A DNA stretch of 64,000 nucleotides from Rhynchobatus australiae (lineage: Eukaryota). Position numbers and translations under genes: made by a program. The notes under the pieces were generated by a model. It was not told where the DNA came from. It did no database searches and saw nothing but the letters and a program-made list of their open reading frames with translations. Below are positions 481 to 58,926 of this stretch, in pieces (the first letter of the stretch is position 1; each line of letters starts with the position of its first letter). The stretch spans positions 56,368,217-56,432,216 of the forward strand of contig JAUZTB010000002.1 in the NCBI GenBank assembly GCA_034780895.1, given 5' to 3'.

Positions 481-680
481 AACAAAAACAGAAAATGCTG
501 GAAGGAGCAGATCAAGCAGCATTAATGGAAAGAGAAACAGAGTTATTGCTTCAGATTCAAGACTTTTCATCTGATGGGTTTCAGGCCTTAAACGTCAACT
601 CTTAAATGTCCACGTATGCTGCTATGCTGCCCGACCTGCTGAGCATTTCCAGCATTTTTATTTCATATTTCCAGCATGTT
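481..680. mobile_element. Palindromic PLE pseudo-LTR-derived repeat
   Basis: Left arm AAAATGCTGGAA..GCAGATCAAGCAGCA, right arm TGCTGCCCGACCTGCTGAGCATTTCCAGCATTTT, decayed CTGATG..AAACGTC centre. Confidence 0.6.
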
Positions 681-6325: not shown

Positions 6326-6984
6326 TCGGTGTCGCTGGTCTGATCACCTTCACTGTCTTGTTTCTGTAAACTTGCTGTGTGCGGATTGGTTACTGAGTTT
6401 CCTCCAGTTCAAAAGTACTTCATCAGTTGTAAAGGATTCTGAGATGGTAGAAAAGCTTTTTTTTTAACAAGAATTGAACCCTCATGATTGAGGCAAGAAT
6501 TCAGGACACCTCCTGATGAATTTAATCTCCCTAATGGTTTTACTTAGTTTCTGTAGTTTCAAAGAATTAAATGGATTCTTTGAAGACTTAATCTATTGCT
6601 GATTAAAGAGTACATTCACTTTCCAATAAACCCAAGCAATCAATGCCTGCTTGATTATTTCACTCTTAAGCAATCTTTCACTCAGTGAGTGTTCACTTTC
6701 TCACACTGATGTCCACCTCGGTGCCAGACTTTGTTCAATATCCAATGACAATGGAGGGTTGACATTCCAGTCAGAGGCCATGAAAACAACGTGAAACTGT
6801 TACTGCTCCTGCACCAGCTGCTGCTGAGAGAAAATACAGGCACTTGGGTATTGACCTTCAGTCATGCTCAGCCCTCAGTGTGCTACATTATTGCAGGCCA
6901 AGCAAGGCCACTGTCGGATGGGCAATCCATCTCCCTCCTTCAGCCTCCAGTCACTTTGTTTAAAACTCTCGCTACTCTTCCTTG

Positions 6985-7740
6985 AAGCAAAAACAGACAT
7001 GCCAGAAGAACTCAGCCAATCAAGCAGCATCGGTGGAAAGAGAAACCAGTCAACGTTTCAGGTCAGTGACCTTTCCTCAGAACTGGGGGAGTGGGGGGAG
7101 TGGAGGGGTGTCAGTTATCAGAGCAGAGCTGGGAGAGGAGAGAGGTGCTGGGCAATAGACTATATGGAGATGGGTTATGGAGACACGAGAGGCAGATGCT
7201 GGAATCTGGAGCAAAAACAAAATGCTGGAGGAACTCAGCAGGTCAGGCAGCATCAGTGGAGGGAAATGGATAGTCAACAGTGTTTTCCCGACACATCGAG
7301 TGTCCTCTGGAGAAAGGTTGTGACAGACCAGGTAATAACGAGCATGAGCAGTGACTGTTAATGTGGCATCTTGAAGTAACAGGGTGAGAAAGCATGAAAT
7401 TGGGAAATGATGGGAGAGCAGTTACCTGAAGTGGAAAATTCAACGTTCATTCCAAAGTGGCCAGTCTTCTGGTTTACGCTGAGCCTCGCCGTGGCAGTGG
7501 GGGAGGCCGCAGATGGGCAGGTCAGAATGGGAGTGGGATTGAGAATTAAAGTGGCATGCGACAGGAGGTTCAGGATCACCCCTGCAGACTGAGTGCAAGT
7601 GTTGTGCAAAGCGATCACCCAATCTGTGTTTGGTTTCTCCAGTGTAGAGGGAACCACGATGTGAACACTGAGTGAAGCACACTAGACTGGGAGAAGCGCA
7701 AGGGAATCGCTGCTTCACCTGGAATGATTGTTTGGGTCAA
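6985..7740 (-). mobile_element. Penelope-like element 3' part: GIY-YIG endonuclease remnant plus pseudo-LTR pieces
   Basis: Minus frame CSHRGSLYTGETKHRLGDRFAQHLHSV..PVACHFNSQSHSHSDL, then MNVEFS after a frameshift, matches the PLE GIY-YIG domain. Terminal repeat pieces at about 6985-7090 and 7185-7280. Confidence 0.85.
7046..7086 (-). ncRNA. Minimal type I hammerhead ribozyme motif in a Penelope-like pseudo-LTR
   Basis: Minus strand reads CCAGUU CUGAGGA A AGGUC ACU GACCU GAAA CG UU GACUGG: CUGANGA and GAAA cores, 5-bp stem II, 6-bp stem I (CCAGUU/GACUGG, one G-U), UH site, palindromic AACGUU in place of stem III. Confidence 0.75.
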
Positions 7741-7787: not shown

Positions 7788-9540
7788 ATAGATAGAATTA
7801 TAGAATCACAGAATTGTACAGCATGGAAACAGACCACTTGGCCCAACCTGTCCATGCTGACCAGTGGACACTCCTCTCTGTTAATCCTATTGCCCAGCAC
7901 TTGGTCCATAGCCCTCTTTGCCTGGGTAATTCAAGTGGTCATGTAGACACTTCTTAGATGCTGGCAGGGACTCAGTTTCAACCACTCTTTAAGGTAATGC
8001 ACTCCAGGTACTTACCACTCTGTGGATGAAGACAGTCTATCTCATATCCCTTCTAAATTTCTTCCCCCTTCCCCTAAACCTATGGCCCTCTAGATTTATC
8101 TTCTGATGCAGAAGACTATCTTGTAGTCTACCCTGTCTATATTACTCATGATTTCATATACCTAATGTCCTCAGCTCCAGGAGAACAGACCCAGCTTCTC
8201 CTCATAACTGAACTGCTCTGTCCCAGGTAACGTTCTGGCAAATCTCCCCTGCACCCTCTCCAGTGCTATCACATGCTTCCCATAACATGCTGATCTGAAC
8301 TGTACATAGTGCTCCAGCTGAGGACGAGCCAAGGTTTTATGACCAAGCATGACCTCCCAACTTCTGTATTCAGAGCCTTGACTACTGAAGGCTGGTATCC
8401 AAATGTCTTCCGAACCATGTTATCGACCAGCAAGTAACCTTCAATGATCTATGAACTTGTACTCCAAGGTCCCTTTGTTCCTCAATACTCCCTAAGACCC
8501 TACTATTCATGGTTTATGTCCTAGCCTCATTAGTGCTTGCAAAATGCATCACCTCATATTTGTCCAGAATGAACTTCATCTGCAATTTTGAGTTTTACCA
8601 AGACCCCATTTCACTAACACATTGATAGCTTTTTGCAACAAGATTACCTTGCACACTATCAACAACTCCAACAACCTACTGATTTTGCCTCCCACATCCA
8701 TATCCAAGTCATTCACATACACTACAAACAGCAAGGTTCCCAGCACCAGTCCTTGTGGGACATCATTAGTCACAGCCATCAAATCGCAAAAACAACCCTC
8801 TCCCATCACCCTCTGTCTCCTGTTACCAAGCCAATTTAGGATCCAGTTTGTTAACTTGCCCTGGATCCCATAAACCCTCACCTTTTGAACCAGTCTCCCA
8901 TGTGGGACCTTGTCAAAGGCTTTGTCACAATCCATGTACACCACATCTCGTGCCCTGCCCTCAATGATACACTTCATTACCTCTTCAAAGAATTCAATCA
9001 AATTGGTCAGACAGGATCTACCCTTGTAAAAGCCATGTCATTCCTAATGATCATTAATCCTCTCCCTCAGAACTTTTTCTAGTATCTTCCCTATTACTTA
9101 TGTTAGACTCGCAGGTCTATAGTTGCCAGGCTTTTACCTGCTGCCTTCCTTGAATAGAGCGACCATGCTTGCTGTCCTCCAGTCAAGCAGTATCTCACTT
9201 TGTGTCCAGTGAAGATTTTAAAATCTCAGCCAGAGCCCCAGCAATCTCTTCCCATTCCTCCTGTAGCAGTCTGGGACAAATCCCACCCATTCCAGGGGAT
9301 TTATCCACCTTTAAGCTCACCAAGACATTGAGTACCTCCTCTTTATTTACGGAGACCTGCACTGGACTTCGGCCTGCCCCTTCACTGAACTCTCCACCTA
9401 CAAAGTCTGTTTCTTTTGTGAATACCGACGAAAAGTAGTCATGTAGGATCTCACCTGTTCCTCTGGCTCCACGCAGATCGTCCCTGTTGCCCATAATGAG
9501 CCTTACTTTTACCCTGCTTATTCTTTCCCCCTTAATATAC
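7788..9540 (-). mobile_element. CR1 LINE, 5'-truncated, RT region to 3' end
   Basis: IEFFEEV..DVVYMDCDKAFDKVPHGRL..NWLGNRRQRV..VPQGLVLGTLLFVVYVNDLD and DYFSSVFTKE..LKVDKSPG..ICPRLL. CR1 tail at about 7790-7860. Confidence 0.9.
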
Positions 9541-35002: not shown

Positions 35003-35534
35003 CAGAATGAAGCCTTTGCTAAATATGCGATATTTTAAAAATAAAATCAAAACAATAGATAACTACCTCTTTTATTAAGACCATCAGATGACATCTATCA
35101 GGACCCAGAGACTTGATAATCCATACCAGCATACTACCTCCTACACCACGAGCTTCCATTTTCCACCATAACTTTCGACACAACACCTTATCAAATATCT
35201 TCTGGAAATCTAACCATAATCCAGCCACAGATTCCTCTATCTACAGCACATGCTACTTCTTCAAAGGACTTCATTAAAGTTTGAGATGAACGTATGGTGT
35301 AAACAGTGTTGCTTTATCTGAATGATGGAAGTATTCGCCCTCCTCAATAGCAATTAGCTCAGAAGTCAACTTGGTGTTTAGATGATACATAAGTCAGCTG
35401 ATTTTCTGGAGCTACAGGACAATTGTTGTACTCTTGTCAGCATTCACTGGGAAGATGGATGGCAAGAAACTCAATGCATTCTACTGCAGAGAGACTACTT
35501 CCATCCAGTCAGATGTGATCGATGTGACAATACA

Positions 35535-35745
35535 AGAGACTGCAGATGCTGGAATCAGGAGCAACAAATAAGAAGCTGGAGGAGCTCGGTGAGTCAGGCA
35601 GCATCTGTGGAGGGACAGTCGACATTTTGGGTTGAGACTCTTCATCTAGACTGGATGAAAGCTCTTGACCCGAAACATCAACTGTCTATTTCCGTCCACA
35701 GATATTGCCTGACCCGCTGAGTTCCTCAGCTTTTTGTTTGTTGCT
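35535..35745. mobile_element. Palindromic PLE pseudo-LTR-derived repeat
   Basis: Arms of about 90 bp, 35560-35647 and 35653-35745, are reverse complements; each carries a decayed hammerhead core. Confidence 0.8.
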
Positions 35746-42577: not shown

Positions 42578-45490
42578 TGGAGGTAGAGTTGTACAGCATG
42601 GTTATGGGCCCTTTATCCATGCCAATTGTGATGGCTATCTACTCTAATTCTGTTGCCTGCATTAGGCTCACATCCTTCTCCTTTCCTTTCCAAATACCTG
42701 TCCAAATGCCCTTTAAACATTTTAATCTTATCTGCCTCAAACACTTCTTCTGGCAGCATTTAACTACCACCCTGTGTGGAAAAACTTAGCCACAGATCAA
42801 CTTAAACCTATGACTCTCCCCACCCCTGGATAAAGACCGACTGCCCTCAATTTCATTAACCTCTACAAGGTCAGCCCTTAGCCTCCTACATTCCAGTGAG
42901 AATAAACCCAGCCTATCCAATCTCTCATCATTACTAAANNNNNNNNNNNNNNNNNNNNNNNNNNNNNNNNNNNNNNNNNNNNNNNNNNNNNNNNNNNNNN
43001 NNNNNNNNNNNNNNNNNNNNNNNNNNNNNNNNNNNNNNTTCCAGTGAGAATAAACCCAGCCTATCCAATCTCTCCTCATTACTAAAGCTCTCCATTCCAG
43101 GAGACAAACTGGTAAATCTCTTCTGCACTCTTTCTAATGCTACAACATCCTTCCAAGTGCAGCCAGACCAATGCTTTGTACAGCTGTAATGTCCCAAAAT
43201 CCCAGTCCCCTGGGCAAAAAAGGCAAGCATGCCAAATACGTTCTTCACGACCTGATCCACCTGTCTCAACATTTTCCAGGAAGCTATGAACTTACATCTG
43301 TCATTTACTCCATGTATCAGATTAGGATACAACATCCTAAAATGCACTACCTCATACTTTCTAGATTAAACTCCCTCTGCTGCCATTCCGTCTGACTTTC
43401 CAACTGATCTATGTCCCTCTGTATCCTTTCATAAACTTCATTATCTACAACTACATTTTTTGTGTCATCAGAAAACTTGCTAATCAGTCCACTTGCATTT
43501 TCATCCAAGTCACTTATATGACTATCCATCCCTGTTTATAGACCTCCAGTCAGAAAAACACTGCTCAACTGCCAACTTCTGTTTCCCATCACCAAAGAAA
43601 TTTTAAATCTAGTTTGCCAACGCATCTTGGATCCCATGTGCCTTAACCTTCTGGACCAGCCTACAATGCAGAAATTTGTCAAAAGCCTTGCTAAAGTCCA
43701 CATAGACCATGTCTACTGCCCTGCATTTCATCAATTTTCTTAGTTGCCCCTTCAAAAAAAGCCTCAGATTTGTGAGATACAAGCTCCCCCACACTAAATC
43801 ATCATGTTGACTTATCCTAATCTGTCCCTGCCCTTCTAATGAACATCAATCCTGTCCCTTTGGATGATTTCCAATAATTTCACGCAAGGCTCACTGTAGT
43901 TTCCTAGCTTATCCCTACTAGTCTTTTTGAATAAGAAAACAACATCCCCCAGCCCTCTGATATCTTGCTCGTCACAAACAAAGATGCAAATATCTCCATT
44001 ACACCCCCAGAAGTCTCCAAACTTGTTTCCCATAGCATCCTGAGATAGATCCCTTCAGGCCCTGGAGATTTATTCACCTCAATGTTAGCCAGTATCTCTA
44101 ACAGTTCCTTCTTCCTGACACAGACATGTGCCAAAATATCCATATATCCCTCCTCTAACTCTCCATCCTCCATATCCTGTGAAAAGTAGTCATTTAGGAT
44201 TCTGTTCATATTCCCTGGCTCCACATGTAGATGTCCTTTTTGTTCCCTGAAGAAACGTATTCTTTCTCTAGCTTCCCTCTTGCTTCCAATTAGTTTTGGG
44301 ATGTTCCTTAATCCTTCTTGCCAAGGCCATTTATTGGCCTCTTTGTGCCCTCCTAACTTCTTTCTCTCCTACATCCCCAATAAACTGCAGAGGATTCGTC
44401 AATTCAAAATGCCTATACCTGACATTTGCTTTCTTATTTCTGATCACACCTTCAATCCCCTTTGTTAACCAAGGTCCCCTAATCTTACCATCTTTGCTTC
44501 TTACGAAGACATGCCAACTATGAGCTCTTACTATTTCGCTTTTAAACGCCTTGCACTTATTGGATCTTGTTTTTCCCTCTTGCAGCTGCTCCCAATTTAC
44601 TTTCACCAGGTCCCTTAAACAGGTCAAATCAGCTCTCTCCCCCCACTCCCACCACAATTTAAGACCTTCATTCTAGGTTCAACCTTATATTTTTCCAAGA
44701 CCACCTTGAAACTTACTGAACTATGGTTGCATTTACAAAGAGTTCCTCAACAAACATTTCCAATGTCAAGTACAGCCTCTTCCTTGTATGACTCTCTAAG
44801 TACACTACTTCAAAAATCCTTCGACTACATTTTATGAATTCCACTCGATCCAAGCCTCTTGCATGAAGGTAATCCCAGTAATTATTAGAAAAGTTAAAAC
44901 CCCCACTACTACTTCACTATTGTTTTTACTGCAGTTTACCTACGTATCTGTTCTTCTAGTATAACCCCATTAAAGTGATTGCCCTTTTCTTATTTCTAAG
45001 TTCTATCCATATATCTTCATTGGCTGATCCTTCCAGAATATCTTCCCCAAGTACTGCCATAATGCTCTCGCTAATCAGCAGTGCAACAACTCTTCTGTCA
45101 CACCTAAAACTTCTAGACCCTGGAGTATTCCTTCAACCATGTTTCTGGAATTACAACAATATCATAATCCTGTGTATTGATCCATGCTCTTAGCTCATCA
45201 GTCTTGTGACCCTCCTTGCATCAGAGCAAATGCATTTAAGCCTACCGGCAGTCTGTTTCCCCACCTGTCTCTGTTTGCTTTACTCAATTTTGACGCTCCA
45301 TCTGCTGTACTATCATTCAGGATCCCATCCCCATCTCACTAGTTTAAACCCTCCCGCGTAGCACCGGCAAGCCTCCCTACAAGGACATTGGTCCCCCTCC
45401 AGTTTAGGTGCAACTATCCTTCATGCATGGAAAAGACCCCAGTGATCCAAATACCTGAAACCCTTGCCCTGCACCAGCTCCTTAGCCCTA
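42578..45490 (-). mobile_element. Long decayed CR1 LINE (ORF1 end, endonuclease, RT, 3' tail) inserted in an older SINE
   Basis: Minus LHLNWRGTNVLVGRLAGATREGLN* (ORF1 esterase end), DELRAWINTQDYDIVVIPETWL (APE endonuclease), AVDMVYVDFSKAFDK, ISKFSDDTK, KDVVALERVQKRFT. SINE halves at 42385-42577 and 45500-45660. Confidence 0.9.
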
Positions 45491-56404: not shown

Positions 56405-57779
56405 NNNNNNNNNNNNNNNNNNNNNNNNNNNNNNNNNNNNNNNNNNNNNNNNNNNNNNNNNNNNNNNNNNNNNNNNNNNNNNNNNNNNNNNNNNNNNNNN
56501 NNNNCAGTTCAGCAATCTCCTCCCTCGCCTCATGAAGCAGCCTGGGGAATATTCTGTCAAATAATTACAAATTAAATAACCATGGGAAATTAGATTACAG
56601 TCGAACGCCAGGTTACACAAGGGATATGCTCCTGAAAGCACCATTTAAGTTGAAGCTAGGTAATAAGGCATTATGTCAATAGAAAACACGGAGATGGGGA
56701 TCTGGTACTAACATTTGATAAACTGATTTCAAAGGTCATTATAAAAAATAATGGAATTATTAGCCTCAACTATATACTTTTTCACGACATTTGTCCCTGG
56801 CCATCAAGCTTGTTACTGTAGACAAATCACCAGCCTGACAAGAGTTATGCACGAGACAAAGGAAGGAGAGACACCAATTTCTATCACCCCCAACAGCTGA
56901 TGAGAAAGACCGCAGGATCCAAGTGGTTTGTCAACATATGGGTCAGCTGCTACCACTCCCTGCAACACCTGTACTCAATGTGCCAGCTAGTGTGCAGCCC
57001 TGAGTGAATACATCGCTCGGCCTAACTAGCCCAATACCAGCTTTCCTGGGTAGCTTCTCAGCTTGACTGTGATGATTCAATCTTACAGGAGCACCGACAG
57101 AGGGCACAGCTTTATGGCAGATTCCTGGTACGGCAGCATGCAGTAGCAGGGAGGGCAGGGATTCACATCTACAAAAAATGTGAAGCCAGGGACAATGCAA
57201 GTTGAAAAATTTCTCAAATTACACAAAGCACACATACATAGATCAGTTTAAAACACAAAAATGTGTTACTGAGGGTCTGACTGTACAATACAAAAAGAGT
57301 AAGAAATTTCTATAGCACCAAAAGTAAACAAACGCAGTACAAATGATCAGGAATGTCAGTTACAACAGCTGAAGTGTTTGGACAGTGACAGAGTTATTTC
57401 ATCAAGCATTTTAAATCACATATATGAATTTAACATTTTTATGGAATACTGTCACATTACATTGACATTTTTACTCTTGCATAAGGTGTAAGTTACATTT
57501 AAAGTAATCATTTGTAATATTTCAGCAAAATCTCACCTTTCAAAGCCGACTGAAAACACATGAATTTTCTGTATATCCATCACAAGAAACCATATATTAT
57601 GAAACAATGCTTGAAATTCATAATTAAAATCATTGCTATTTGTTCACAGAATTATAAATTATGCCCAATATGAATGGCAGCATAGCATTTCCACATGTTC
57701 AACTGTACTACAATCTAGTGTAATAGAATTTTACTTCATTATTTAAATGTTATGTAATGAGTAAAAAAAAATCACTTAC

Positions 57780-58926
57780 TTTTCATATTCCTCATTGTCT
57801 TTATCACATCTGACATCTTTGTGTTTTTCNNNNNNNNNNNNNNNNNNNNNNNNNNNNNNNNNNNNNNNNNNNNNNNNNNNNNNNNNNNNNNNNNNNNNNN
57901 NNNNNNNNNNNNNNNNNNNNNNNNNNNNNTTTCATATTCCTCATTGTCTTTATCACATCTGACATCTTTGTGTTTTTCCCAGTCCTTCCCGTGTTTACAA
58001 GTGGTTAACAAAATAATATCTTCTCCATTATGTACATGATACAAGGCATTTCTGGTTTCTGAGCCAATGCCAGTTAAGTACCTTTTACCTTTAAAAACCA
58101 GTAAGTATTTTCTTGTGGGTGGCACATTGTTGTACATAAGCCAACCCCTTTCGCCTCCCTTTTGAGCATGCTCTTTGGAAAACAAGGGGATGGATATATC
58201 GAAATTTGATCGGAAGTTATCCATACCAATACTGGCTTTAGCTAACATAGCTTGCCCGATATCAAATCCTAAATCTTCCGTATAATCAGGCCATGTCCCT
58301 GAATACAGATTGAATATAAGATGATTCCTTCCGTCATTCCACAATGGGAGACTCTGAATTTTAGCTTTTACATTATGAACATACTGAAATGAAAGCTGGT
58401 CTCTATCCAAGGTATCAATGCTGAGGATAAACAAACATGCTTGTCTTGGATCTGATGTATAATACCTGGAATCCTCGATAGTAGTAAGGATTTTCTGGTA
58501 ACTTTCAGAAATCTTCTCCCCCTTTTGAAGCGGGTAGATATACACTTTGAATCCGTTTCTTTGGCAGAGAGAGGAATCGAAGCAAGTCTCCATCCTGCAT
58601 TTTCGATTCTTGTAAACGTTCGCCTTGACCTCCCTCTTCTGCCTTGGGGAAAGTCCGGGGTTGAGGCCAAGGTGGGTTGCCCCCTCTTCATCGCTTCGTC
58701 CGTCCTCCGAGCTGAAATAGCTATTCAGTAGGTTTATCCACACGGGCCAGTGGCGTCTGATTGGGACTGAACCCTGGTCTCCGAGATCGTTGTGAAGATG
58801 ATCCGCCGATAATGATGATGAAGATAAATTTGAGGGCGATTGTCGGAACCGCGCTCCTCCCAGGTAGAAAAGCAGCAAAAGACAGGCGCCCAATGACACT
58901 AGAAGATACCTTTTCTTGGCCTGCAT
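57780..58926 (-). CDS. ext1c: First coding exon of an exostosin-1 family heparan sulfate polymerase (GT47 domain); probably the ext1c/EXTL1-lineage paralogue rather than canonical EXT1
   Basis: Translation MQAKKRY + hydrophobic signal anchor, then [102 protein letters not shown]. Ends TAT GAA AA|GTAAGT (phase-2 donor, GT 57779-57778), the position where EXT1 exon 1 ends. Removing the false gap and 49-bp overlap gives 998 nt (332 codons + 2). Family is certain; the paralogue call is less so. Confidence 0.93.

What the first reader, a model, noticed from the sequence alone, without database searches (positions are those of the whole stretch)
7046..7086. Complete-core minimal hammerhead ribozyme on the sense strand of the gene's first intron
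Seen: the minus strand (the pre-mRNA strand) reads CCAGUU-CUGAGGA-A-AGGUC-ACU-GACCU-GAAA-CG-UU-GACUGG. All core residues are present, with a perfect stem II, a 6-bp stem I and a predicted cut between + positions 7052 and 7051. It lies just 3' of a PLE GIY-YIG remnant. Known: PLE pseudo-LTRs carry minimal type I hammerheads whose stem III is reduced to a palindrome and which cleave best as dimers. Inference: this is the only copy I found in the window with an undamaged core, so it could cut the nascent transcript if paired with another copy. It may equally just be a young or lucky remnant.
Basis: partly seen in the sequence, partly recalled or inferred. Interest (0 to 1): 0.7.

Follow-up and report, generated by a model that had tools for sequence, protein, structure and literature searches.

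The report
Lucky Penelope hammerhead remnant in intron
This is a real copy of the miniature self-cutting RNA motif that Penelope-type jumping genes are known to carry, left in the first intron of an EXT1-family gene; it is one of about 7,500 copies with an intact core in this genome, most likely kept intact by chance and likely inactive, so it is ordinary.

Summary
The motif is there exactly as described (7086-7046, minus strand, cut 7052/7051) and is not chance (0 of 100 shuffles). It ends a decayed Penelope-like element in the 266-kb first intron of an EXT1-family gene. It is not special: the genome holds 7,582 exact-core matches (control 349), about 0.2 expected per window. In its own old subfamily the core decays like the flank (95/863 vs 536/4171, p=0.14), about 2.4% of copies should stay intact by luck and 3 of 117 do. 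This copy is 10% diverged in its flank (median 12%): lucky, not young. It has A10.1-U11.1 instead of the family G-C, its tandem neighbour lacks the catalytic half, the nearest intact sense partner lies 163.5 kb away, and stem I is predicted to be displaced in context. One relative's orthologue probably carries two changes in or beside the motif, places unknown. Cleavage was not tested. The scan noted this kind of element before in other genomes. Verdict: known kind, likely inert.

The parts
7046..7086 (-). Minimal type I hammerhead motif (stem I 6 bp, CUGAGGA, extra A, stem II 5 bp closed by A10.1-U11.1, GAAA, ACGU palindrome, U17); predicted cut 7052/7051
6983..7177 (-). 3' end (pseudo-LTR region) of the old Penelope-like subfamily that carries the motif
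   Evidence: relatives align over 7177-6983; 99 anchored copies aligned
7042..7059 (-). Competing hairpin GAAAC/GUUUC, predicted to sequester G12-C15.2 and displace stem I; present in the subfamily majority
7180..7307 (-). Nested, 5'-truncated pseudo-LTR piece of another, far more abundant hammerhead-bearing family; keeps GUU and the 3' arm (7278-7270) but has no CUGANGA/stem II half; flanked by a diverged duplication of about 15 nt (7322-7308 and 7179-7165, 3 mismatches)
   Evidence: relatives run from 7308 straight to 7177 with about 12 nt overlap; duplication read; depth about 100 times higher
7308..7738 (-). Broken C-terminal endonuclease-like coding remnant (about 7738-7425) and 3' region of the same element; likely GIY-YIG of Neptune type
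   Evidence: no Pfam or PDB hit
57780..58925 (-). First coding exon of the EXT1-family host gene (broken by a 100-N gap with a duplicated end); intron 1 runs from 57779 past the window's start
   Evidence: the start codon is read from the sequence

Best explanation
This is the hammerhead motif at the end of an old, broken Penelope-like retrotransposon copy in the first intron of an EXT1-family gene, whose core most likely survived by chance and which is predicted not to cut the pre-mRNA at any useful rate. In the active ancestor the motif likely cut the element's own tandem transcript as a dimer: two copies pair through the ACGU palindrome, so the GAAA acting on one cut site comes from the other copy (inferred from the published dimer model). 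After insertion the copy drifts neutrally (shown for the subfamily). Here it is transcribed in sense as intron RNA (inferred from gene layout), has no stem III of its own (shown), no intact partner within 163 kb (shown), a non-standard 10.1-11.1 pair (shown) and a competing hairpin (predicted), so it would be degraded with the intron uncut.
For: 7,582 exact-core matches vs 349 control, 3,411 of them with the standard extra base plus G10.1-C11.1. Subfamily: non-CpG core changes 95/863 vs flank 536/4171, p=0.14; CpG at 15.2-16.2 kept in 11 of 87; intact 1 of 87 other copies vs 2.1 expected; 3 of all 117 anchored copies intact, this one included. This copy: flank 5/50, motif 4/41, subfamily medians 12% and 15%. 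Copies show no strand skew in two EXT-family introns (13 sense, 15 antisense in each). Stem I pairing probability 0.02 or less in four contexts of 161-601 nt; active dimer -22.3 vs two monomers -24.4 and another duplex -33.4 kcal/mol. Published: single min-HHR gave no detectable cleavage, dimers low (PMC4209133); the anole PLE hammerhead needs the PLE protein (PMC11167929).
Against: Both intact cores in this intron are in sense (2 of 2 among 28 copies); 0.76 expected, P(2 or more)=0.18. A10.1-U11.1 is a double change that keeps a Watson-Crick pair (seen in 5 of 87 other copies). Both stems are perfect, matched by only one other listed subfamily copy. The two unplaced differences of the orthologue could lie outside the core. 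In the isolated 71-mer the hammerhead fold is the minimum-energy one. No cleavage assay or RNA data exist here. Folding ignores tertiary contacts and co-transcriptional order.
Confidence: 0.88

Rival explanations
1. The site is cut occasionally in trans, when transcripts and protein of a younger Penelope-like family are present, as a side effect without selection on this locus.
For: Younger families have intact cores with G10.1-C11.1, the same ACGU palindrome, and a 5' arm ending CAGUC that can pair with this copy's 3' arm. The anole PLE hammerhead is protein-assisted (PMC11167929).
Against: Needs only the substrate half, so the intact core here would not matter. No long unbroken PLE frame was seen in the loci I translated. 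In anole RNA-seq no read ends were found at the cut site (PMC11167929). The competing hairpin and cis stem I would block pairing.
Confidence: 0.07
2. The copy has been kept by the host and cuts EXT1-family pre-mRNA, paired with the second intact sense copy 163.5 kb downstream or a host chaperone, to tune splicing or output, like the conserved intronic hammerheads of amniotes.
For: Sense orientation, perfect stems, kept CpG, paired A-U at 10.1-11.1; second intact sense core in the same intron; insertion shared with organisms C, D and E. Precedent of conserved intronic hammerheads (PMC6155905 passage).
Against: Intact share equals neutral expectation. The partner has a weak 3-bp stem II with G.U at the core and only a 4-bp palindrome would join them. 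Orthologue in E: probably 2 changes in 43 nt against 5 plus a gap in 96 nt beside it. No stem III and no loop 1.
Confidence: 0.04
3. A chance sequence that only resembles a hammerhead.
For: No Rfam hit; folding z-score 0.52.
Against: 0 of 100 shuffles; 7,582 vs 349 genome-wide; fixed place at the end of a repeat family; matches the published min-HHR features.
Confidence: 0.01

Closest known systems
Minimal type I hammerheads (min-HHR) in pseudo-LTRs of metazoan Penelope-like elements (Cervera and De la Pena 2014, PMC4209133)
   Same: Type I topology, complete core, extra base between 9 and 10.1, palindromic 15.2-16.2, no helix III, dispersed single copies from truncated PLEs, thousands per genome (about 4,000 in coelacanth and 9,000 in Xenopus in that paper).
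   Different: A10.1-U11.1 instead of the conserved G-C; 6-bp stem I and 5-bp stem II; single decayed copy. Cartilaginous fishes are not named in the parts I read (host group here is my recall, not a call result).
Neptune-type EN+ Penelope-like elements (PMC8557442)
   Same: Relatives show a C-terminal endonuclease-like region with CX2-5CxxC linker and CCHH-like residues, followed by the hammerhead-bearing end.
   Different: Only the 3' about 750 nt survive here, with stops; clade not tested by tree or profile.
Non-LTR retrozymes (PMC7229834; 10.64898/2026.07.22.740005)
   Same: Type I hammerheads related to PLE pseudo-LTRs; reported as depleted in introns.
   Different: Retrozymes are tandem repeats with a complete motif in at least two consecutive units; this is a single copy still attached to endonuclease coding sequence.
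Conserved intronic hammerheads of amniotes (RECK, CTCL, DTNB; as described in PMC6155905)
   Same: Type I motif in a host intron, retroelement origin.
   Different: Those are conserved across species and canonical in form; here no conservation beyond neutral expectation was shown and stem III is absent.

Membership tests
PLE minimal hammerhead (min-HHR) | Core C3 U4 G5 A6 N7 G8 A9 / G12 A13 A14 A15.1 / U16.1 H17 | tested here: met
PLE minimal hammerhead (min-HHR) | Helices I and II can form | tested here: met
   6 and 5 bp; minimum-energy fold in isolation; stem I predicted displaced in longer context
PLE minimal hammerhead (min-HHR) | No helix III; palindromic 15.2-16.2 | tested here: met
   ACGU at 7056-7053
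PLE minimal hammerhead (min-HHR) | Extra base between 9 and 10.1 | tested here: met
   A at 7073; kept in 81 of 87 other copies
PLE minimal hammerhead (min-HHR) | G10.1-C11.1 pair (conserved trait in PMC4209133, not part of its search descriptor) | tested here: not met
   This copy has A-U; the subfamily state is G-C (37 of 87; G-U 33, A-U 5). A decay of this copy, not a family difference.
PLE minimal hammerhead (min-HHR) | Lies in the terminal repeat region of a PLE, 3' of the endonuclease | tested here: met
   15 of 89 anchored loci show the endonuclease-like piece upstream in the same orientation; several relatives are continuous from 7738 to 6983
PLE minimal hammerhead (min-HHR) | Cleaves as a dimer in vitro | not testable with these tools
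   no assay; only folding energies
EN+ Penelope-like element (Neptune type) | C-terminal GIY-YIG endonuclease with CCHH and CX2-5CxxC linker | tested here: inconclusive
   Motifs visible in 9 aligned fragments, definition from PMC8557442; no hit in Pfam, PDB sequences (71) or longer proteins (66); fold failed, pLDDT 33.5 (78)
EN+ Penelope-like element (Neptune type) | Telomerase-like reverse transcriptase upstream | tested here: inconclusive
   Absent at this locus; a relative (L089) has an upstream frame with an RT-like GxAMG motif (motif recalled), repeated genome-wide, no Pfam hit
Non-LTR retrozyme | Tandem units, complete hammerhead in at least two consecutive units | tested here: not met
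   neighbour at 7307-7180 lacks the 5' half
Domesticated intronic hammerhead | Core conserved across species above flank rate | tested here: inconclusive
   one orthologue spans it, 2 of 7 differences unplaced; subfamily decays neutrally

The most novel reading that the evidence does not exclude
Thousands of intact or half-intact Penelope hammerheads in this genome's introns, this one included, are latent cut sites that are switched on in trans when a younger Penelope family is transcribed and its protein is present, so that retrotransposon activity clips long host pre-mRNAs such as this 266-kb EXT1-family intron.
Probability: 0.06. Interest if true: 0.7.

Novelty: new member of a known kind. 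Interest (0 to 1): 0.12.

Why it matters
As it stands it matters little: it is one more decayed copy of a described motif. The useful result is the background: intact cores occur about 3 times per megabase in this genome and at the rate neutral decay predicts, so an intact core alone is no sign of function. If trans or protein-assisted cutting of intronic copies were real, it would link retrotransposon activity to pre-mRNA fate and address the open question of what PLE hammerheads do in vivo; the genome's copy number makes that testable by a sense/antisense count in annotated introns.

Tried and rejected
Rfam at E up to 10: no hammerhead family. Pfam on the remnant and on 9 frames of relatives: no GIY-YIG or RT family; profile of 9 fragments vs PDB sequences: 0 hits (71); longer homologues: 71 candidates, none passing (66); Atlas did not hold the sequence (61); AlphaFold model pLDDT 33.5, so no fold search was run (78). 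Sequencing runs: no RNA holder listed, which says nothing on expression. Read-laying could not place differences inside the motif: table 3 lists none in 7036-7090 for any run although paralogous pieces with 2-4 differences lie there; orthologous contigs of organisms C and D stop at 7028; no spanning piece for C, D or F. The upstream neighbour as dimer partner: rejected, it has no catalytic 5' half; as substrate it offers 3 bp of stem III and 4 bp of stem I against 6 bp in cis (read). 'Young copy': rejected. A permuted hammerhead using GAAAC/GUUUC as stem III: rejected, no matching stem I arm (read). A genome-wide count of tandem intact pairs was not obtained. Lunse et al. (PMC5785218) is not held; only its title was seen. 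No paper found giving rates for A10.1-U11.1 (search, passages); that this pair and GUU slow cleavage is my recall.

Full report
Observation. The minus strand at 7086-7046 reads as reported, and the predicted cut lies between 7052 and 7051. A scan of both strands for core, stem II and stem I found this one hit; the strict form appeared in 0 of 100 block-wise dinucleotide shuffles. The 71-mer folds into stems I and II, with an unremarkable z-score of 0.52. Rfam gave no hammerhead match.

Host gene. The frame at 59028-57930 matches PF03016 and Exostosin-1 chains at E 2.7e-136. The donor is at 57779. Exon 2 lies at G000:C2:56159580 and exon 3 at 56156024. The first coding intron is thus about 266 kb; the motif is in sense, about 50.7 kb after the donor and 216 kb before exon 2. 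An upstream non-coding exon was not looked for.

Anatomy. Relatives align to 7738-7308 and continue directly into 7177-6983, so the endonuclease-like remnant and the hammerhead belong to one element of about 750 nt. The 128 nt between are a nested, truncated end of another hammerhead-bearing family, flanked by a diverged duplication of about 15 nt; it keeps GUU and the 3' arm but has no catalytic 5' half. Nine aligned fragments show the CX2-5CxxC linker and CCHH-like residues that PMC8557442 gives for Neptune-type PLEs (passages). No library confirmed GIY-YIG or RT and the fold failed, so the clade is inferred from motifs.

How common. The exact core pattern occurs 7,582 times in the 2.23-Gb genome (control 349); 3,411 also have an extra base plus G10.1-C11.1 (control 20). 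These patterns do not test the stems. That is 3.2 per Mb, 0.20 per window and 0.76 for this intron. A profile finds 28 copies in this intron (234 kb without N), 28 in 145 kb of a paralogue's first intron and 17 in 134 kb from 16 arbitrarily chosen stretches; sense/antisense is 13/15 in both introns; intact cores are 2, 0 and 0.

Young, lucky or kept? A pattern anchored on the two stem I arms and the flank, blind to the core, gave 117 copies; 100 were listed, 99 fetched and aligned, 11 dropped for poor or missing flank, leaving this copy and 87 others. Non-CpG core positions changed in 95 of 863 letters, the flank in 536 of 4,171 (p=0.14). The two CpGs that include G12 and C15.2-G16.2 survive in 18 and 11 of 87. 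The product of site-wise survival predicts 2.4% intact (2.1 of 87); 1 was seen. Over all 117, 3 are intact, this one included. This copy differs from the majority at 5 of 50 flank and 4 of 41 motif positions (medians 12% and 15%). So it is of ordinary age and its intact core is what chance gives. The anchors favour better-kept copies, and the flank filter caps flank divergence at 30%, so the flank rate is if anything low.

Relatives. Contigs of organisms C and D cross the element's 3' junction (6400-7028, 14 differences; 6575-7028, 25 differences), so the insertion predates those splits. One contig of organism E spans 7048-7186 with 7 differences and 1 gap; 5 are placed at 7091-7150 and 2 are unplaced, probably in 7048-7090, where the table is blind. 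That would be 4.7% against 5.2% beside it, in line with drift, but whether the core is hit is unknown. No RNA run was listed.

Mechanism. PMC4209133 (abstract, results, discussion and start of methods read; supplements not opened) defines the min-HHR, reports no detectable cleavage of a single motif and low activity of dimers and trimers, and names G10.1-C11.1 as highly conserved. PMC11167929 (passages) found the anole PLE hammerhead active only with PLE protein, and no RNA-seq ends at its site. In the dimer model the GAAA acting on a cut site comes from the other copy (my inference from the topology). Here the only other intact core in the intron is in sense but 163.5 kb downstream, with a 3-bp stem II closed by G.U. 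This copy has A10.1-U11.1 (5 of 87 others); that this slows cleavage is recalled, not shown. In contexts of 161-601 nt stem I has probability 0.02 or less because GAAAC pairs with the GUUUC just downstream (0.94 here, 0.10-0.80 in four other intact copies with N7 and flank of this type). The active dimer is predicted less stable (-22.3) than two monomers (-24.4) or an alternative duplex (-33.4 kcal/mol). These energies omit tertiary contacts.

Against this reading. Both intact cores in the intron are in sense (P of 2 or more = 0.18); the A-U pair is a double change that keeps pairing; both stems are perfect; and younger families could supply a trans partner with a compatible arm. None of this exceeds chance in what I could count, and none was tested by experiment.

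Known and new. This is a member of the described min-HHR class with one decayed trait, not a retrozyme (10.64898/2026.07.22.740005, parts 1-2 of 5 read, supplements closed; PMC7229834, passages) and not shown to be like the conserved amniote intronic hammerheads (PMC6155905, passages). PMC6765202, PMC544870, PMC2837043 and PMC3138052 were seen as passages only; the last lists GUU among active triplets. The scan's own notes hold 77 findings with these words in at least 14 genomes; they agree but are not independent evidence. That the host is a cartilaginous fish is my recall of these repeats.

Verdict. Observation confirmed; origin supported; function at this locus unlikely. Interest 0.12.

Noticed in passing
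G000:C1:2828233-2828336 (L267:1234-1337): Two intact-core hammerheads of a younger family 76 nt apart in direct tandem, with G10.1-C11.1 but only 3-bp stem I; a better candidate for cis dimer cleavage than the finding.
   Followed up: partly
G000:C2:56211773, minus strand (same intron, outside the window): Second intact-core copy in sense, weak stem II.
   Followed up: partly
window 57781-57979: The last about 49 coding bases of exon 1 are duplicated on both sides of a 100-N stretch; similar duplications flank other 100-N stretches, which looks like an assembly overlap artefact.
   Followed up: partly
window 482-662 and 35532-35745; also window-relative -65812 to -65663 and -119274 to -119097: Head-to-head inverted pairs of decayed pseudo-LTR pieces, the usual inverted PLE end structure.
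   Followed up: no
window 7042-7059: The GUUUC just 3' of stem I can pair with GAAAC in the subfamily majority, a possible built-in off state of this subfamily's ribozyme.
   Followed up: partly
G000:C2:56426153, C68:13642851, C135:91802323: Three loci with a long first GT47 exon, suggesting three EXT1-type paralogues in this genome; only this one was compared with EXT1.
   Followed up: no
window 8576-9539 and 42786-44672: Fragments of LINE-type reverse transcriptase (PF00078 hit for 8576-9037).
   Followed up: no
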